Source of the DNA: Actinomycetota bacterium | GTDB taxonomy: Bacteria; Actinomycetota; CADDZG01; JAHWKV01 | Direction: 5' to 3' | DNA: 64,000 nucleotides | Assembly: GCA_019347715.1 (NCBI GenBank) | Contig: JAHWKU010000010.1 | Location: 10,805-74,804, forward strand | Shown: positions 1-29,336 of the stretch, one piece after another | Numbering within the stretch: position 1 is the first letter of the stretch | Layout: every line of letters starts with the position of its first letter | Notes under the pieces: generated by a model | Seen by the model: the letters and a program-made list of their open reading frames with translations, nothing else | Database searches by the model: none | Told to the model about the DNA's origin: nothing | Translations under genes and position numbers: made by a program

Positions 1-1111
1 GCAAATTCGCTTTTGTTTCCTCGAGTCGATCTGGTGCAGATAGGAGATCCTTCATTCGCTGAGCAAATCCTGAGCCATCCTGATACGGGACGGTGAATCC
101 CAACCCCTCGCTCTGGACGATGTCTGCCATCGCATCGCCCTCAGTGGCAACGATAGGAATCGTCGTCCAGATGTAATCGAGTATTCGGGTCCGAAATGAG
201 AATCTCGTCTCGAGATGATCAAGATGGGCTGAAACCCCGAGATCCGCTTGCAGCAGGTAGTTTTGCCGCTCTTCGTAAGGGACCCATCCCTGATTGAAGA
301 ACACCTGCTTGTCGTATAAGTCCAGCTCCTTGGCGAGGGAGATGGCTCGACCGGCCATGTCCATCGGCGTGAAGGCGGGAGCCGGGCGTTTTATACCCAT
401 GAAGACCAAGGCCGCCGTCATACCCGAACGCTTCAATTCAGCGATGGCCCGGATGGGAGTCAAGGGATCCAGCCAGTTCCATATTCCGCCGGCCCAGATT
501 GCCATCGGCCAATCAGGCTCAATGCGAAGCGTCTCTCTGAATCCAGGCCCTGTCTTGGAAGGATCTTGGGAGGGAAGGCCGAATGAGACCACGTCGATCC
601 TGTTCCTGAATGATTTGTCAGCGAAGTAATCCGACGGAGCAATGAGGTTGAGAGCCATCATCGAACCCAGCCAAAGATCCCTCTGTCTCTCGGTGGCGCA
701 GAGAATGGCGTCGGCGAAATGTAGCCAGAGCCGTAGCTTCAAGACCGAGGCCCTGCTCTTTTGGATCTGAATTCGCGGATCCTCATCCGCGTAAGCTTCG
801 AGTGTCTCGAGAGGAATGGGATCGTAAGCGTCTACTAGCAGTTTGACATGGTGGGACCTAGCGAGACGCGCAATTCCAGGCGTGATCGACTGGGCGATCA
901 AAACATCCTGACCACCAATGAGATTCGACAAACTGCGATTATTGAGAGAGACAACTTCAAAGTCGGGATGGTCGATGTCACAAGTTCCCTTAGTTGCAAG
1001 CGTCACCTCGTGATGTTTCGAGATGACCTTCGCGAACTCCCAATATCGGATTGCCGGACCCGCCATGCTCGAGCCGATTTCGTCTATGCAATAAATCAGG
1101 ACCTTGGGAAT
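1..1111 (-). CDS. GT4-family (GT-B) glycosyltransferase, C-terminus beyond window; no canonical start codon
   Basis: Open minus-strand frame from 1111 to the window start. It translates as ...KVLIYCIDEIGSSMAGPAIRYWEFAK...ATEGDAMADIVQSEGLGF..., a typical GT4 N-terminal beta-strand with Gly-rich loop and a C-terminal donor-binding region. It is absent from the ORF track because there is no ATG/GTG/TTG between the upstream in-frame TGA and the internal Met. Candidate ATT start at 1111-1109 lies 5 nt after AAGGAGGG. Confidence 0.7.
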   Translation of the reverse strand, partial: MPKVLIYCIDEIGSSMAGPAIRYWEFAKVISKHHEVTLATKGTCDIDHPDFEVVSLNNRSLSNLIGGQDVLIAQSITPGIARLARSHHVKLLVDAYDPIPLETLEAYADEDPRIQIQKSRASVLKLRLWLHFADAILCATERQRDLWLGSMMALNLIAPSDYFADKSFRNRIDVVSFGLPSQDPSKTGPGFRETLRIEPDWPMAIWAGGIWNWLDPLTPIRAIAELKRSGMTAALVFMGIKRPAPAFTPMDMAGRAISLAKELDLYDKQVFFNQGWVPYEERQNYLLQADLGVSAHLDHLETRFSFRTRILDYIWTTIPIVATEGDAMADIVQSEGLGFTVPYQDGSGFAQRMKDLLSAPDRLEETKANL

Positions 1112-1112
1112 G

Positions 1113-2120
1113 TCACCCTCCTTGGCGCCGTCTAAGATGAAATGACAAAAGTCTCAGGCCTTCCGCCAGCCGAATCGGCGCGACAACCTGTTCGTAGAAG
1201 ATCTGAGCGTCGGAGATCCTTCTCCCGGCTTGACTTCGCGCTCTGCGGTTCCTGGATTCCCCGAAATTGAGAAACAACCAGAAGATTGCCCTCCATATGG
1301 ACAGAAAGGATCTGGGGCGGCCGGATAAAGCCATTGCTATCGAAATTCCTGCAATCAGGACCAGGTGAACCGGCAAGACTCTCCAAAGTGTAAGAGTCGA
1401 TGCGTTGCTCGCGATGGATAGGAGACGGTTTCTGTAGGCGAGGTAATGAATCTCGTGAGTTTGGAAGACCCGCGTGGCGGTTGCAAATCCCACGTGTTCA
1501 ACAACTGCCGTTGGAAGTAGCTTTACCTCATAGCCTGCCATTCGAGCTCGCCAGCACAGGTCGCTCTCCTCGAAGTAGGCGAAGAACTCTTCTCGGAAAC
1601 CCTCCAACTCTAGGAAGACCTCTTGCCGGACCAGCATGCATGCACCCTTGACGGAGAAGACGGGAACGGCGCCCGGCCCCCCGGGTTCCCTTCGGTGCCA
1701 GAGAAAGCCGGTCCAGCTGAAAAGGTCACCAGCAGAGTCGATCTCATGCTCTACATCGAGGATGAGGGGCTGCCAGACTGCGGTTCCGGGATCTCTGTCG
1801 GCTGCCTCGATCAATGAAGAAAGACATCCCTCGGTGAGGATGGCATCCGAGTTCAAGAACACAACGTAGCGCCCCGTTCCGGCCGCGGCTCCCTCGTTGC
1901 ACGCTGGGGCGAAGCCGGTATTGGTCTCGTGTCTTATCACTTTCGATGAAGGAAATTGAGACGTTGCCATCTCGAGTGAGCCATCGCTGGAACCGTTGTC
2001 AACGAGGACGATTTCTATGGCATCTACCGACTGAATTTCGACTGACTTTAGGGCTCGGATCAACATGTCGCCGGAGTCCAGCGTCGGAATTACGATCGTC
2101 ACGATGGGCTGTCCGGTCAA
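1113..2120 (-). CDS. GT2-family glycosyltransferase
   Basis: 335 aa. N-terminus IVTIVIPTLDSGDMLIRALKSVEIQS...VLVDNGSSDGS is the classic GT-A/GT2 DxD-containing fold. Stop TGA at 1113-1115 directly abuts the downstream GT4. Confidence 0.85.
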   Translation of the reverse strand: MTGQPIVTIVIPTLDSGDMLIRALKSVEIQSVDAIEIVLVDNGSSDGSLEMATSQFPSSKVIRHETNTGFAPACNEGAAAGTGRYVVFLNSDAILTEGCLSSLIEAADRDPGTAVWQPLILDVEHEIDSAGDLFSWTGFLWHRREPGGPGAVPVFSVKGACMLVRQEVFLELEGFREEFFAYFEESDLCWRARMAGYEVKLLPTAVVEHVGFATATRVFQTHEIHYLAYRNRLLSIASNASTLTLWRVLPVHLVLIAGISIAMALSGRPRSFLSIWRAIFWLFLNFGESRNRRARSQAGRRISDAQIFYEQVVAPIRLAEGLRLLSFHLRRRQGG

Positions 2121-2166
2121 TTCAAGCTACCCGAAACGACATGTCGACACTGTACCCTCTCCTACT

Positions 2167-3276
2167 GTGAGAGTTCTTCATGTTTTTAAGGATTACTTTC
2201 CACCGACGAGGGGGGGAATCGAGCAGCACATCAATGATGTCGTCCACTCGAACATGGACGTTAAGTTCGCCGTCCTCACTTCCTGTCGATCCCGAAAACC
2301 CATGGTCGATGATGATGACGGAGTGACGGTGATCCGTACTCCTGAGATCGTGCGTTTGGCTTCCACCCCGGTGACTCCTTCATGGAGGAAGTTCCTCGCT
2401 AAATCGGGGGCCGACGTAATCCATTTTCACTCTCCCAATCCATTCGGGGAATTGGCGTTCCTTGCCTCGAGGACCAAGATCCCGATGGTTCTCACCTACC
2501 ATTCTGATATTGAGAGGAATCCCTTTTTGTACCGGTTCTTTGCCCCTTTCCAGCGGCGGTTTTTGACTAAAGCTGACCGCATCATCGTCTCCTCACCCAA
2601 CCTGCGGGACTCGTCCATTGCATTGAGAGGTCATCTCGAGAGGATCGCAGTCATTCCTTTTGGAGTGGATCCCGATCTCTGGGCCCCCCGGCCCCCGATG
2701 GTGGACGATATCCGGAGTCGATTCTCACCGCCCCTCATTGTCTTCCTTGGAAGGCTCGTCCCATACAAAGGAGTGGATGTCTTGATCCGCGCGATGAGAG
2801 GGATAGACGCAAGAGCCCTGATCGTCGGATCCGGCCCGATGAGGCAGAGCCTCGAATTCCTAGCTGCCGACCTCGGAGTGGACAAACGCGTGACTTTTAT
2901 CGGCGACGTACCCGACGAGCTGCGTCCAGCTTTTTACCACTCCGCCGACGTCTTTGTTCTGCCTGCTTACTCCAGGGCGGAGACATTCGGTATCGCAATG
3001 CTCGAGGCGATGGCTTGTGGCACGCCGGTGATTTCGACTGAGTTGGGAACCGGAACATCCTGGGTGAACCAGAATAAAAGAACGGGTCTCATCGTGGAAG
3101 CGGGCAGCGTCTCAGCCTTAGCCGGCGCCATACGTGTAATGCTTTCAAACGAAGAAATGAGGAAAAGAATGGGTGAGTTTGCGGCCCTCAGGGTGAGAGA
3201 TCACTTTACGAAACAGGAGATGATCAAGGCGTTGGAAGCTGTCTACTTGGATACCGGAGGGAGGGGAGGTCACTAA
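2167..3276 (+). CDS. GT4-family glycosyltransferase
   Basis: ORF 2065..3276. GTG at 2167 gives MRVLHVFKDYFPPTRGGIEQH, a typical GT4 N-terminus, and avoids overlap with the divergent GT2 start. C-terminal region GTPVISTELGTG..GLIVE matches GT4 donor-binding motifs. Confidence 0.85.
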   Translation: MRVLHVFKDYFPPTRGGIEQHINDVVHSNMDVKFAVLTSCRSRKPMVDDDDGVTVIRTPEIVRLASTPVTPSWRKFLAKSGADVIHFHSPNPFGELAFLASRTKIPMVLTYHSDIERNPFLYRFFAPFQRRFLTKADRIIVSSPNLRDSSIALRGHLERIAVIPFGVDPDLWAPRPPMVDDIRSRFSPPLIVFLGRLVPYKGVDVLIRAMRGIDARALIVGSGPMRQSLEFLAADLGVDKRVTFIGDVPDELRPAFYHSADVFVLPAYSRAETFGIAMLEAMACGTPVISTELGTGTSWVNQNKRTGLIVEAGSVSALAGAIRVMLSNEEMRKRMGEFAALRVRDHFTKQEMIKALEAVYLDTGGRGGH

Positions 3277-16217: not shown

Positions 16218-18656
16218 GTGCCGCTCACGGAGACCGAGGCAATCGCGCTCGCTGATGAAATCGCCGCGCACGGCCTGCCCGATCACGCAAGAACCCAAAG
16301 CGCCGAACTGAGAGACAGCGCCTTCGGCAACCGCATCACCTACTCACCGAAAGTCTTCATCCCGCTGACGATGCTTTGCCGCGACATCTGTCACTACTGC
16401 ACTTTTGCCAAGCCGCCTTCCAAGGGGCAGCGGGCGTACATGTCGATCGACGAAATGATCGAGATCGCACGCGCCGGTGCGGCGGCCGGTTGCAAGGAAG
16501 CGCTTTTCACTTTGGGGGACAAGCCCGAGCTTCGATACCGGGCCGCCCGCGAAGAGCTCGACCGGTTGGGATTCGAATCAACGATCGCGTATCTCGCCCA
16601 CGCGGCCAAGGCGGTGTTGGATGAGACCGGGCTGCTCCCGCATCTCAATCCGGGGATCCTGTCTCCCGACGACTTCGAGCTTCTGCGCGACGTCGCTCCT
16701 TCGATGGGGATCATGATCGAATCAACCTCGGACCGGCTGCTGCAAAAGGGAATGGCCCACCACGGAAGTCCTGACAAGGTTCCGGCGCTTCGGCTTGCAA
16801 CACTCGAGCTGGCCGGGCGTTTCCAGGTCCCATTCACGACTGGGATCCTGATCGGCATCGGAGAGAACTGGCGCGAACGTGCGGAGACCTTGCTGGCGAT
16901 TGCGGAGTCGCATCGTCGCAACGGTCATGTCCAAGAGGTGATCGTGCAGAACTTCCGGGCAAAGCACGACACCTTGATGAGCGATCATCCCGAGCCGGAC
17001 GACGACGAGATGCTGGCTTCGATCGCGCTGGCGCGCCTCATCCTCCCAGAGGACATCAGCGTTCAGGCCCCGCCGAACCTGGCCTCATCGGACGAGAATC
17101 TCGTTTCCTACATCGAGCACGGAATAAACGATTGGGGCGGCGTCTCTCCGGTAACGATCGATCACGTAAACCCGGAGGCCCCCTGGCCCGACCTCGACCG
17201 GCTCGAAGCGGTGACTGCGAGGGCCGGCGGCGTGTTGGTGCCGCGCCTTACCGTCTATCCGCGCTACGCCTTCGACGATGAGTGGGTTTCGAAGAAAGTG
17301 CTTCCGGCGGTCCTAGCCGCAGCCGACGGCGAGGGCCTCGCATTCGAAGGCCCCTGGTACTCCGGCGCCCCCGCCCCCTCGCGGGGGCGCGACTCACAGA
17401 ATTTTCCAGGAAACCCCCCCGGGGGGCGCGACTCACAGGATTTTCCAGGGGCCCGCACGCGCGGCCCCGGCGTCGCGCGCGCCCCCTCGCGGCCCCGGCC
17501 CCGTGCCGATTTCGAAACCGCCATCGCTAAGGCTGGCGGCAGTGAACTTAACGAAGACGAAATCACCGTCCTTCTGACCGCGCGGGGCCCCGAGTACGAG
17601 CGTCTCATCGAAGCCGCCGACGCGCTCAGACAAAAAGTCAGCGGCGATACGGTCACCTTCGTCGTCAATCGCAATATCAACTACACCAACATGTGCTACT
17701 TCCGATGCGGATTCTGCGCGTTCAGCAAGGGCCCGAAGTCCTTGAACCTGCGCGGCGATCCATATCTGATCTCTTTCGACGAGATCGCGGAGCGCACCAT
17801 CGAGGCCCGCGAGCGCGGCGCTACAGAAGTTTGCCTTCAGGGTGGTATCCATCCGTCGTTCACCGGCGACTACTACGTGAAGGTCGTCCGTTCGATCAAG
17901 CAGGCGGTCCCCGACATCCACGTTCACGCCTTTAGTCCCCTGGAGATCTGGCAAGGCGCCGAGACGAAGGGCGTTACGATCCGCGATTTGCTTTGGGAGC
18001 TGAAGGATGAGGGGCTCGGCACGCTTCCCGGGACAGCCGCAGAGATTCTCGACGACGAGGTGCGGGCGATCATCTGTCCCGACAAGATCAATACGGCTCA
18101 GTGGAGCGAGGTTGCCCGTACTGCGCACTCACTCGGTCTGAAGATGTCCACGACGATGATGTTCGGACATGCCGACACATACCGGTCGTGGGCCCGTCAC
18201 CTGATCGTTCTTCGAGATATTCAGAAGGACAGCGGCGGATTCACAGAGTTCGTGCCGCTTCCATTCGTCCACATGGCTGCGCCGATCTTTCTGAAAGGGA
18301 AAGCAAGGCGGGGGCCCACGTTTGCCGAGACGATCAAGGTGCACGCGGTGGCGCGCCTTGCGCTGGATCCGTGGATCACGAACATACAGGCCTCGTGGGT
18401 GAAGCTCGGGGTCGAGGGTTCGCAGGTCGCACTGAATGCCGGCGCCAACGACCTCGGCGGGACACTCATGAACGAGACGATCTCGCGCGCCGCTGGGGCC
18501 TCGCACGGCCAGGAGATCACGGCGGACGAGATGAAGCGCATCATCTCCGACGCCGGCCGCCCCTGGGCCCAGCGCTCCACCACCTACGTACCCTTGGAGG
18601 CGCGACTCACAGAATCTTCCAGGCCCCCGACTGCGTCGGGGGCCTGTCGCGCGTAA
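16218..18656 (+). CDS. fbiC: FO synthase, bifunctional CofG/CofH (radical SAM)
   Basis: 812 aa. Two radical-SAM cysteine triads, CRDICHYCTF and CYFRCGFCAF. The linker and C-terminal tail contain copies of interspersed repeat family A. Stop TAA at 18654-18656 lies inside the repeat. Confidence 0.92.
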   Translation: MPLTETEAIALADEIAAHGLPDHARTQSAELRDSAFGNRITYSPKVFIPLTMLCRDICHYCTFAKPPSKGQRAYMSIDEMIEIARAGAAAGCKEALFTLGDKPELRYRAAREELDRLGFESTIAYLAHAAKAVLDETGLLPHLNPGILSPDDFELLRDVAPSMGIMIESTSDRLLQKGMAHHGSPDKVPALRLATLELAGRFQVPFTTGILIGIGENWRERAETLLAIAESHRRNGHVQEVIVQNFRAKHDTLMSDHPEPDDDEMLASIALARLILPEDISVQAPPNLASSDENLVSYIEHGINDWGGVSPVTIDHVNPEAPWPDLDRLEAVTARAGGVLVPRLTVYPRYAFDDEWVSKKVLPAVLAAADGEGLAFEGPWYSGAPAPSRGRDSQNFPGNPPGGRDSQDFPGARTRGPGVARAPSRPRPRADFETAIAKAGGSELNEDEITVLLTARGPEYERLIEAADALRQKVSGDTVTFVVNRNINYTNMCYFRCGFCAFSKGPKSLNLRGDPYLISFDEIAERTIEARERGATEVCLQGGIHPSFTGDYYVKVVRSIKQAVPDIHVHAFSPLEIWQGAETKGVTIRDLLWELKDEGLGTLPGTAAEILDDEVRAIICPDKINTAQWSEVARTAHSLGLKMSTTMMFGHADTYRSWARHLIVLRDIQKDSGGFTEFVPLPFVHMAAPIFLKGKARRGPTFAETIKVHAVARLALDPWITNIQASWVKLGVEGSQVALNAGANDLGGTLMNETISRAAGASHGQEITADEMKRIISDAGRPWAQRSTTYVPLEARLTESSRPPTASGACRA
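17384..17411 (+). repeat. interspersed repeat family A copy, in-frame inside fbiC linker
   Basis: gggggcgcgactcacagaattttccagg encodes GRDSQNFPG. Confidence 0.85.
17422..17451 (+). repeat. interspersed repeat family A copy, in-frame inside fbiC linker (tandem to previous)
   Basis: ggggggcgcgactcacaggattttccaggg encodes GGRDSQDFPG. Confidence 0.85.
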
Positions 18657-18687
18657 TCATCTGGAAAAATCTGTGAGTCGCGCCTCC
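18597..18687. repeat. complete palindromic element of repeat family A (about 91 bp; 27-bp terminal inverted repeats plus internal hairpin)
   Basis: GGAGGCGCGACTCACAGAATCTTCCAG-gcccccgactgcgtcgggggc-ctgtcgcgcgtaatcat-CTGGAAAAATCTGTGAGTCGCGCCTCC. Contains the fbiC stop codon. Confidence 0.85.
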
Positions 18688-18782
18688 TAATCGCGCTTAG
18701 CCCTACCGACAGTGGGTAGACACGTTTAGTAGGCGAGGGCACAGTTAGGCCGGGGGACAAAGAAAGGCGAAATACGGATTCA

Positions 18783-28543: not shown

Positions 28544-28690
28544 CAACCCCGATTGTTCGGTACGAGAATTCGCTTAACTACGCGAGCGGTCACACTCAGC
28601 CACCGTATGGGTAGTTAGGCGCGACCGCCTGTGCCAAACGGCCCACGCGCCCGCCCGTGCCAACCAAAACGGGGCCCCCTAGGGCCCCGT

Positions 28691-28717
28691 CTGGAAAATC
28701 CTGTGAGTCGCGCCTCC
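28691..28717 (-). repeat. interspersed repeat family A copy (reverse orientation) at left edge of AT-richer island
   Basis: ctggaaaatcctgtgagtcgcgcctcc, preceded by the hairpin ggggccccctagggcccc. Confidence 0.85.
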
Positions 28718-28724
28718 TAGTGGG

Positions 28725-29336
28725 TTAGCACGGCCCCTGGCCTAGTTGGAACTTGCCGTTCCATTTCTCGTAGATGAATGCCGTCGCCTCGGTGATCTTG
28801 GCGTCGAGATTCGAAGTCGTCACGTAGCGAGCCGTCTTGCCCGAAGCGTTGCTGAGAGGAACATCCTCCTCGGCCCCGTTGTCCCAAGTGACGTGGATCC
28901 TCGATGGAGCGGCCGACGGACCGCCGTCTATCTTGTTGATGATGAATTGCCACTGGGTGCTGTCGCAGTCGTATCCGACGAGCTTGGCCCGGATCGTCTT
29001 GCCTCCGATGACCTCGAAGTCGACCGCGTCGGTCGCAAGGACCTGTCCGTGTCGCAACAGACGAGCCTCGACCTTGTAACCGCCGCTCTTCGCGGTCTCG
29101 GGTGACCAGTCAAGGCTCCAATTCCCCGACTCGCCTTCTGCGGGAGCCGCTACCTCGGTCCAGCCGAAGACGCGTCCGTCCGGCCCCGTCAGCTGCACCT
29201 CGACCAGCCATGGCGCCGCCGTCAAGGTGACTTCCTGCTGGGTCGTGTCCGAGTTGCCGTCGCTGTCGATGACAGTGAGAGCAATGGTGAACGTCCTGTA
29301 GAACGCTCGGATAATCTCGAAGTTCCAACCGTCCAC
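28725..29336 (-). CDS. hypothetical protein (beta-rich, no recognised family)
   Basis: 203-aa ORF only. Composition AT-richer than flanking genes. No motif recognised. Confidence 0.35.
   Translation of the reverse strand: MDGWNFEIIRAFYRTFTIALTVIDSDGNSDTTQQEVTLTAAPWLVEVQLTGPDGRVFGWTEVAAPAEGESGNWSLDWSPETAKSGGYKVEARLLRHGQVLATDAVDFEVIGGKTIRAKLVGYDCDSTQWQFIINKIDGGPSAAPSRIHVTWDNGAEEDVPLSNASGKTARYVTTSNLDAKITEATAFIYEKWNGKFQLGQGPC

What the first reader, a model, noticed from the sequence alone, without database searches (positions are those of the whole stretch)
1105..1125. GT4 gene with no canonical initiation codon; ATT five nucleotides after AAGGAGGG as the likely start
The GT4 reading frame is unambiguous (Gly-loop and donor-site motifs). 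However, between the upstream in-frame TGA and the first Met there is no ATG, GTG or TTG. The only Met lies inside the conserved N-terminal Gly-rich loop and cannot be the real start.

A strong Shine-Dalgarno sequence sits at canonical spacing before ATT (Ile-Pro-Lys-Val-Leu-Ile-Tyr...). The upstream GT2 stop (TGA at 1113-1115) is only 1 nt away. The plausible mechanisms are an AUU start or re-initiation coupled to termination.
Basis: seen in the sequence. Interest (0 to 1): 0.55.

Follow-up and report, generated by a model that had tools for sequence, protein, structure and literature searches.

The report
Glycosyltransferase gene probably starting at ATT
A sugar-transferase gene in an uncultured actinobacterium has ATT where all examined relatives have the ATG start codon, preceded by an unusually strong ribosome-binding site, so it most likely uses the rare but known AUU start.

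Summary
On the minus strand a GT2 gene ends with TGA at 1115-1113. AAGGAGGG lies at 1123-1116 and ATT at 1111-1109. The GT4 frame has no ATG, GTG or TTG between the in-frame TGA (1156-1154) and ATG 1066-1064.

In 109 of the 120 closest homologues the annotated protein runs through this N-terminal segment, usually as M-A-K-[IV]-L. In the 22-sequence alignment residue 1 falls on the ATT. All seven homologues read as DNA have ATG there, so ATT is a derived, lineage-specific state.

Met16 is invariant. In a confident model it lies in the loop after strand beta1 (residues 3-8), so starting there would remove a core strand.

The Shine-Dalgarno sequence is exceptional for this SD-poor window: -13.1 kcal/mol, top 0.4% of 14-mers. 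The GT2 stop is its natural end, 1 nt before the ATT. Stop/start overlaps using TTG or GTG are common in the window.

Best reading (about 0.55): AUU initiation helped by the strong SD and/or termination-reinitiation. Not excluded:
- a base-call error;
- a recent start-codon loss;
- a +1 frameshift fusion (weak).

This is a probable new example of a known rarity (infC, pcnB). No expression data exist, and the DNA of the only close relative could not be retrieved. Interest is modest.

The parts
1..1111 (-). GT4-type (GT-B) glycosyltransferase coding sequence, read from the ATT. It runs off the window start: 370 of about 452 codons are visible.
   Evidence: Translation. Pfam Glyco_trans_1_4. It is 100% identical to MBW3589233.1 from Met16 onward. 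The AlphaFold2 model has pLDDT 91.9 and Foldseek hits to GT4 enzymes.
1109..1111 (-). ATT, the proposed AUU initiation codon. It is positionally equivalent to Met1 of homologues.
   Evidence: Alignment A1 and the N-termini of 120 homologues. Seven homologues have ATG at this position in their DNA.
1116..1123 (-). Shine-Dalgarno sequence AAGGAGGG, 4 nt upstream of the ATT. It lies inside the last codons (Q-G-G) of GT2.
   Evidence: The duplex energy is -13.1 kcal/mol, in the top 0.36% of the window.
1113..1115 (-). TGA stop codon of the upstream GT2 gene, 1 nt before the ATT.
   Evidence: Stand-alone GT2 homologues of 325-349 aa end at the same place.
1113..2120 (-). Upstream GT2 glycosyltransferase gene. 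The start is TTG 2120, or GTG 2102 as in NCBI protein P0121. It is co-directional and presumably co-transcribed with the GT4 gene.
   Evidence: Pfam Glycos_transf_2, E = 2.8e-25. Homologues. No promoter-like site lies between the genes.
1064..1066 (-). First in-frame ATG (Met16). It is an invariant internal residue of the MAGP motif and is the start used in the public annotation.
   Evidence: It is an invariant column in A1. It lies in the beta1-alpha1 loop of the model. P0001 starts here.
1154..1156 (-). In-frame TGA that closes the GT4 frame upstream.

Best explanation
The GT4 gene is a stand-alone, full-length gene of about 452 codons. Its ancestral ATG start has become ATT (a G-to-T change at the third position), and it is still translated from that AUU.

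Initiation is made workable in two ways:
(a) an unusually strong Shine-Dalgarno sequence (AAGGAGGG), 4 nt upstream, in a genome that otherwise uses little SD;
(b) ribosomes that terminate at the GT2 UGA, 1 nt upstream, and can re-initiate locally (termination-reinitiation).

The expected result is low expression tied to GT2, with the product still starting with fMet.

Shown here: the sequence anatomy, the positional equivalence to Met1 of homologues, the structural need for residues 1-15, the exceptional SD, and the natural GT2 stop.

Inferred: that AUU is actually decoded as the start, and how much each route (SD-directed initiation versus re-initiation) contributes.
For: 1. There is no ATG, GTG or TTG between the in-frame TGA 1156-1154 and Met16.

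2. The ATT aligns with residue 1 of the homologues.
- 109 of 120 homologues are annotated through this N-terminal segment, usually as M/V/L-A/S-K-[IV]-L, 15 residues before the invariant Met.
- At positions 3-15 of the window, most residues match the first or second most common family residue (K, V, L, I, Y, C, D, I, G, S).

3. The AlphaFold2 model (pLDDT 91.9) puts residues 3-8 in strand beta1 and Met16 in the following loop. A protein starting at Met16 would lack a core strand of the N-terminal Rossmann-like domain.

4. The SD is exceptional for this window. By contrast, the seven homologous loci read as DNA show no comparable SD in the sequence seen upstream of their ATG. This fits compensation for a weak start codon, as reported statistically for GUG and UUG starts (PMC5622118).

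5. The GT2 stop is natural: homologues of 325-349 aa align end to end. It lies 1 nt from the ATT.
- Ten NTGA stop/start overlaps occur in the window (4 ATG, 2 GTG, 4 TTG), none with a strong SD. Coupling with relaxed start codons therefore looks routine in this organism.
- Reporter work shows re-initiation tolerates gaps of a few nt (PMC10666635).
- The infC-type UAA-GGU-AUU junction is translated about half by re-initiation and half de novo (PMC3592434).

6. The ORF is intact. Its differences from the 88%-identical P0002 avoid conserved columns (Mann-Whitney p = 0.004).

7. AUU starts are established for infC and pcnB (PMC3592434; 10.1101/063800). ATC and CTG starts have been proven by N-terminal proteomics in Deinococcus (PMC2830850).
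Against: - There is no expression or proteomic evidence.
- The ATT is not conserved in the family: 7 of 7 homologues read as DNA have ATG.
- The DNA of the only close relative (P0002, 88% identity) could not be retrieved. Its annotation from Met16 is weak evidence, because other 'MAGP' starts proved to be miscalls.
- In E. coli reporters AUU gives roughly 0.02-3% of AUG (10.1101/063800), or 6-8 times less than AUG (PMC3592434), so output could be very low.
- A strong SD could pre-date the mutation and does not prove that the ATT is used.
- The 16S 3' tail used for the energy estimate was assumed. It was not read from this genome.
Confidence: 0.55

Rival explanations
1. The gene has recently lost its start codon and is a young pseudogene or a nearly silent gene. 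The ATG-to-ATT mutation disabled initiation. The ORF and the SD are still intact only because too little time has passed.
For: All seven homologues read as DNA have ATG, so ATT is a derived change seen in one sequence only. AUU is a poor initiator in E. coli reporters (10.1101/063800). Nothing shows that the state is old.
Against: The ORF is intact over at least 452 codons and keeps every family-invariant residue. The SD is far stronger than is usual in this genome or in the upstream sequence seen at the homologous loci, which suggests selection for initiation. AUU with a strong SD next to a stop codon is still translated in reporters (PMC3592434), so 'silent' is unlikely in the strict sense. 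This rival grades into the best explanation.
Confidence: 0.18
2. The ATT is a sequencing or assembly error, or a minority-strain variant fixed in the MAG consensus. The true codon is ATG and the gene is ordinary.
For: It is a single-base difference from the family norm (ATG in 7 of 7). The source is a metagenome-assembled genome. A related population (P0002, 88% identity, neighbouring accession number) comes from the same project, so mixed strains are possible.
Against: Substitution errors in assembled short-read consensus are rare (general knowledge, not tested here). The site is not in a homopolymer. The error would have to coincide with the strongest SD-start arrangement in the window, which is not needed for an ATG gene in this SD-poor genome. 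NCBI's pipeline also found no canonical start for the second sequence, P0002, although that is weak evidence.
Confidence: 0.12
3. A programmed +1 ribosomal frameshift at GGG-UGA-C, similar to prfB, makes a GT2-GT4 fusion protein. On this reading the ATT is an ordinary internal Ile codon.
For: The GT4 frame is +1 relative to GT2. The junction reads AAGGAGG-G-UGA-C, with an SD-like element, UGA followed by C, and GAC as the next codon after a shift, as in prfB (prfB features from general knowledge). A natural single-ORF GT2-GT4 fusion with this GT4 family exists in an Actinomycetota MAG (L001).
Against: GT2 ends where its stand-alone homologues end. The ATT aligns with residue 1 of stand-alone GT4 homologues. 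The SD overlaps the would-be P-site codon instead of lying 3 nt upstream, as prfB requires. Slipping from GGG to GGU leaves a wobble mismatch. The GT2 domain of L001 is only 29% identical and its linker is about 10 residues longer.
Confidence: 0.04
4. Translation starts at Met16 (ATG 1066-1064), as in the public annotation, and gives a 437-aa protein.
For: It is the first canonical start. NCBI annotated both P0001 and P0002 this way.
Against: No SD precedes it. Met16 is invariant and internal in every homologue. Codons 3-15 still encode family-typical residues. The model places residues 3-8 in core strand beta1. Other homologues annotated from this Met have an upstream ATG.
Confidence: 0.04
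5. Initiation occurs at another near-cognate codon, for example ATC 1138-1136 (nine codons upstream) or CTG 1099-1097.
For: Both codons are in frame.
Against: Neither has an SD at working distance: the SD is downstream of the ATC and 17 nt from the CTG. Homologues have no equivalent extension or truncation.
Confidence: 0.03

Closest known systems
AUU-initiated bacterial genes: infC (IF3) and pcnB of E. coli
   Same: AUU stands in place of AUG and an SD is present. [quoted passage not shown] The result is weak, tunable initiation.
   Different: The infC AUU (or AUA) is conserved across many bacteria and is the sensor of IF3 autoregulation. Here the ATT is not conserved in the family (ATG in 7 of 7 homologues), the gene is a polysaccharide glycosyltransferase, and no regulatory logic is evident. 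Nothing has been shown experimentally.
Non-canonical starts found by N-terminal proteomics (Deinococcus dnaA ATC, rpsL CTG, Deide_03051 CTG; PMC2830850)
   Same: The reasoning is the same. The annotated start removes conserved fold elements, and a near-cognate codon restores a conserved N-terminus.
   Different: Those cases have peptide evidence and are conserved among sister species. This one has neither.
Translational coupling by termination-reinitiation at overlapping or abutting genes (PMC10666635; Adhin and van Duin scanning model, as cited there)
   Same: The genes are co-directional, with stop and start 1 nt apart. The same window has ten NTGA overlaps, six of them with TTG or GTG starts.
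   Different: The classic cases use -4 or -1 overlaps and canonical start codons. Here there is a +1 gap, an AUU and a strong SD, so de novo initiation may dominate.
prfB (RF2) programmed +1 frameshift
   Same: An SD-like element is followed by UGA-C, the downstream frame is +1, and GAC is the first codon after the shift.
   Different: The SD spacing is wrong because it overlaps the P-site codon. There is no CUU-U type slippery codon. Both flanking genes are complete stand-alone units by homology.

Membership tests
Genes with a non-canonical AUU start codon (infC/pcnB type) | No in-frame ATG, GTG or TTG can give the full-length conserved protein | tested here: met
   The first canonical codon is the invariant internal Met16.
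Genes with a non-canonical AUU start codon (infC/pcnB type) | The AUU sits at the position of the homologues' start codon, with a ribosome-binding site at working distance | tested here: met
   Alignment A1 and 120 N-termini. AAGGAGGG lies 4 nt upstream with a duplex energy of -13.1 kcal/mol.
Genes with a non-canonical AUU start codon (infC/pcnB type) | The non-canonical codon is conserved among related genomes | tested here: inconclusive
   Distant homologues (39-50% identity) have ATG in 7 of 7 cases. The DNA of the only close relative (P0002, 88%) could not be retrieved.
Genes with a non-canonical AUU start codon (infC/pcnB type) | Protein N-terminus or ribosome initiation mapped to the AUU | not testable with these tools
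   This needs proteomics, initiation-site ribosome profiling or reporters.
Termination-reinitiation coupled gene pair | Co-directional genes with the stop and start overlapping or within a few nt of each other | tested here: met
   TGA 1115-1113 and ATT 1111-1109, a 1-nt gap.
Termination-reinitiation coupled gene pair | Co-transcription, with no promoter or terminator between the genes | tested here: met
   No promoter-like site was found in 900-2400. One weak terminator-like hairpin lies inside GT2 (1168-1143), and five terminator-like hits against 1.5 expected in that stretch is not compelling. The mRNA around the start has no unusual structure (z = 0.64). These are consensus scans only.
Termination-reinitiation coupled gene pair | Translation of the downstream gene depends on translation of the upstream gene | not testable with these tools
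   This needs a reporter carrying a premature stop codon in GT2.
GT4-type GT-B glycosyltransferase | Match to the group-1 glycosyltransferase C-terminal domain above the curated threshold | tested here: met
   PF13692 scores 32.8 bits against a cut-off of 27.
GT4-type GT-B glycosyltransferase | Two Rossmann-like domains (GT-B fold) resembling solved GT4 enzymes | tested here: met
   Model pLDDT 91.9. Foldseek hits GlgM, MshA, BshA, PimA and WaaG with E = 1e-13 to 1e-10 and TM-score about 0.65-0.7.
prfB-type programmed +1 frameshift | SD-like element about 3 nt upstream of a slippery P-site codon that can re-pair in the +1 frame | tested here: not met
   AGGAGG ends inside the P-site codon GGG (1118-1116). 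GGG to GGU leaves a third-position mismatch (prfB requirements from general knowledge).
prfB-type programmed +1 frameshift | The upstream ORF is a truncated part of a longer conserved protein | tested here: not met
   GT2 aligns end to end with stand-alone homologues of 325-349 aa, and GT4 aligns from residue 1 of stand-alone homologues. One distant fused form exists (L001).

The most novel reading that the evidence does not exclude
The junction AAGGAGG-G-UGA-C-AUU may be a dual-output site. Most ribosomes would terminate GT2 and re-initiate at AUU. A fraction would shift +1 at GGG-UGA-C, as in prfB, and make a GT2-GT4 fusion enzyme like the natural single-ORF fusion seen in L001. The ratio of separate to fused glycosyltransferases would then depend on RF2 and IF3 activity.
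Probability: 0.04. Interest if true: 0.7.

Novelty: new member of a known kind. Interest (0 to 1): 0.3.

Why it matters
**Practical consequence.** The public annotation (MBW3589233.1) starts this protein at an internal, invariant Met and so omits the first beta-strand. The same truncation affects about 9% of the closest homologues (11 of the 120 listed), even though six of the seven checked have an upstream ATG and the seventh is cut by a contig edge. Anyone modelling or expressing these enzymes from database entries would be using a truncated protein.

**Biological consequence.** If confirmed, this would be a natural AUU-initiated gene outside the infC/pcnB paradigm. A very strong SD and an abutting stop codon appear to compensate for the weak codon in an otherwise SD-poor actinobacterial genome. 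That would make it a small but useful data point on how start-codon strength, SD strength and translational coupling trade off. It does not open a new question.

Tried and rejected
**Retrieving DNA of the 88%-identical relative P0002 (MBW3590217.1) or of the window's own contig.**
- The exact-protein look-ups found nothing.
- The genome-contig scan returned only relatives of 39-43% identity.
- The metagenome-contig scan returned none.
- One of the scanned peptide patterns (EAYADEDP) is present in P0002, so a second scan was judged pointless.

**Using the 'MAGP' annotated starts of other homologues as evidence for recurrent non-canonical starts.** Rejected. Six of the seven checked have an in-frame ATG 14-16 codons upstream, and one is cut by a contig edge.

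**A split or fused gene, or an indel error.** I considered this after finding the L001 fusion. I rejected it as the main reading because GT2 ends at the family's normal C-terminus and the apparent linker similarity did not survive BLAST.

**TGA recoding.** Rejected on the sequence pattern rather than by a test: GT2 ends on TGA at the family's normal C-terminus, and the window's ORFs close on TGA, TAA and TAG.

**RNA structure or a known RNA element at the junction.** None was found (z = 0.64; no Rfam or tRNA hits).

**GT2-to-GT4 synteny in relatives.** It is not conserved. In L004 the GT4 gene is first in its operon and a GT2 gene follows it. In L005 the GT2 gene is followed by an unrelated gene. 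The junction therefore cannot be compared across loci.
Full report
**What is in the sequence.** The relevant genes are on the minus strand.
- A GT2 glycosyltransferase ORF runs 2120..1113 and ends ...CGG CGC CAA GGA GGG TGA, with the TGA at 1115-1113.
- One nucleotide later (C1112) comes ATT (1111-1109). It is followed by CCC AAG GTC CTG ATT TAT TGC ATA GAC GAA ATC GGC TCG AGC ATG GCG GGT CCG..., which reads I-P-K-V-L-I-Y-C-I-D-E-I-G-S-S-M-A-G-P.
- AAGGAGGG occupies 1123-1116. The spacer to the ATT is TGAC: 4 nt, or 5 nt counted from AAGGAGG.
- Upstream, this frame is closed by TGA 1156-1154. Between that stop and ATG 1066-1064 there is no ATG, GTG or TTG.
- The ORF runs off the window start, so 370 codons are visible.
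- The identical NCBI protein (MBW3589233.1, 'MAG: Actinobacteria bacterium', 81-kb contig) is annotated from the internal Met and is 437 aa.

**What the proteins are.**
- The downstream ORF matches Pfam Glyco_trans_1_4 above threshold.
- An AlphaFold2 model built on 22 homologues is confident (pLDDT 91.9, pTM 0.89).
- By Foldseek the model resembles solved GT4 GT-B enzymes: GlgM, MshA, BshA, PimA and WaaG.
- The upstream ORF is a standard GT2 (PF00535, E = 2.8e-25).

**Where the GT4 protein should begin.**
- The 120 best homologues are 39-50% identical, apart from one at 88%. In 109 of them the annotated protein runs through the 15-residue N-terminal segment, usually as M(V/L)-A/S-K-[IV]-L-[IL]-[YF], before an invariant Met of the motif M-A-G-P.
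- The window's I-P-K-V-L-I-Y aligns residue for residue with that N-terminus, with the ATT on Met1.
- At positions 3-15 of the window, most residues match the first or second most common residue of the family.
- In the model, residues 3-8 form strand beta1 and Met16 lies in the beta1-alpha1 loop. A protein starting at Met16 would lack a core strand.
- Eleven homologues are annotated from 'MAGP'. I read the DNA of seven of them. Six have an in-frame ATG 14-16 codons upstream and are gene-caller miscalls. One is cut by a contig edge.
- With L004 included, seven family members read as DNA all have ATG at the Met1 position.

ATT is therefore a derived state, one transversion from the family norm.

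**The upstream gene ends naturally.** The closest GT2 homologues are stand-alone proteins of 325-349 aa. Their C-termini align with the window's GT2 tail...RRSVQGTRKVSDGELL...LRGNLRRW against ...RRARSQAGRRISDAQIF...LSFHLRRRQGG. The last residues, Q-G-G, which carry the SD, lie beyond the conserved part, so the SD could evolve freely.

**Is the SD meaningful?**
- AGGAGG and AAGGAGG occur at chance frequency across the window.
- Most of the roughly 50 likely gene starts have no recognisable SD.
- Only two AGGAGG copies sit 4-10 nt before a long ORF: this one, and AAGGAGGGACAATG before a 136-codon ORF at 25860.
- With an assumed 16S 3' tail, the site pairs at -13.1 kcal/mol. That is the top 0.36% of all 14-mers and is stronger than 43 of 44 approximate gene starts.
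- The seven homologous loci show no comparable SD in the sequence seen upstream of their ATG.

A very strong SD placed correctly before the one codon that replaces a lost ATG is what compensation would look like. Statistical association of weak start codons with stronger SDs has been reported (PMC5622118).

**Coupling.** The window contains ten NTGA stop/start overlaps (4 ATG, 2 GTG, 4 TTG), none with a strong SD. This suggests that termination-reinitiation with relaxed start-codon choice is routine in this organism.

Published reporter work is relevant here:
- Re-initiation is local and tolerates gaps of a few nt (PMC10666635).
- The infC-like UAA-GGU-AUU junction is translated roughly half by re-initiation and half de novo (PMC3592434).
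- AUU gives 6-8 times less than AUG in one system (PMC3592434) and 0.02-3% of AUG in another (10.1101/063800).

No promoter-like site or unusual RNA structure lies at the junction.

**Rivals.**

1. *A recent start-codon loss, giving a young pseudogene.* This cannot be excluded, because only one sequence carries the ATT. Against it, the ORF is intact, it keeps all family-invariant residues, and the SD is exceptional.

2. *A base-call or consensus error.* This is possible for a MAG, and a related population exists in the same project (P0002). It needs read-level data.

3. *A +1 frameshift fusion.*
   - The GT4 frame is +1 to GT2, and the junction resembles prfB superficially (SD-like element, UGA-C, then GAC).
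   - A true GT2-GT4 single-ORF fusion exists in another Actinomycetota MAG (L001).
   - However, both window genes are complete by homology, the SD overlaps the would-be P-site codon, and GGG to GGU re-pairs poorly.

4. *A start at Met16, or at other near-cognate codons.* These readings are contradicted by the alignment, the model and the SD position.

**Limits.**
- The decisive comparison is whether the 88%-identical P0002 shares the ATT. It could not be made because its DNA is not in any searchable collection here.
- P0002 is also annotated from Met16. That is only weakly informative, given how often callers pick that Met.
- At the protein level, differences between the window protein and P0002 avoid conserved columns (p = 0.004). 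The family member has therefore been under purifying selection since their split.

**Verdict.** This is most likely an AUU-initiated gene assisted by a strong SD and/or termination-reinitiation (about 0.55). It is a probable new example of a known, rare phenomenon rather than a new mechanism. Its main immediate value is to correct a truncated public annotation, with modest interest as a natural case of start-codon/SD compensation.

Noticed in passing
L001:4834-7029 (CAYFXD010000003.1, uncultured Actinomycetota MAG): A single ORF fuses a GT2 domain (29% identical to the window's GT2) to a member of this GT4 family, joined by ...SFRIKELYSSKN-RVLIISTDAVAGKMAGP. Natural GT2-GT4 fusions of this family therefore exist.
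   Followed up: partly
L006:1456, L007:1453, L009:256, L010:256, L011:256, L012:118 (ATG positions upstream of the called genes): Gene callers repeatedly start this GT4 family at the invariant internal Met of 'MAGP' even though an in-frame ATG lies 14-16 codons upstream. Eleven of the 120 closest database proteins are truncated this way. The G-K codons (GGN AAR) just before the internal ATG may mimic an SD.
   Followed up: partly
window, e.g. 5074, 6075, 34777, 35631, 36674, 37747, 42134, 47581, 53641, 59692: There are ten 4-nt NTGA stop/start overlaps, six of them using TTG or GTG and none with a strong SD. Overall the window is SD-poor, with most gene starts pairing with the anti-SD at only about -4 to -8 kcal/mol.
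   Followed up: partly
window 18595-18690 and 28690-28725 (minus strand): A long inverted repeat, GCGCGACTCACAGATTTTTCCAG...CTGGAAGATTCTGTGAGTCGCGC, with an inner GC-rich hairpin, lies between the genes ending at 18656 and starting at 18783. Its 5' arm, including TAGGAGGCGCGACTCACAG.ATTTTCCAGA, recurs at about 28718. It may be a repeated intergenic element or a bidirectional terminator.
   Followed up: no
window 2102-2167: The GT2 gene (minus strand, start 2120 or 2102) and a second, different GT4 gene (plus strand, probably starting at GTG 2167, VRVLHVF...) are divergent. Only about 45-65 nt lie between their starts and neither has an SD, which suggests leaderless or very short-leader transcripts. 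The same divergent GT4/GT2 arrangement is seen in L005.
   Followed up: no
window 29890-52458 versus 4085-29339: Third-position GC of the long ORFs drops from about 0.65-0.80 (4-29 kb) to about 0.47-0.63 (30-52 kb). This may mark a compositionally distinct block, perhaps horizontally acquired, within the polysaccharide-biosynthesis region.
   Followed up: no
window 25849-26270 (+): The only other full-strength SD in front of a long ORF is AAGGAGGGACA-ATG (ATG at 25860, 136 codons). Its SD is nearly identical to the one before the ATT. The function of this small ORF was not examined.
   Followed up: no
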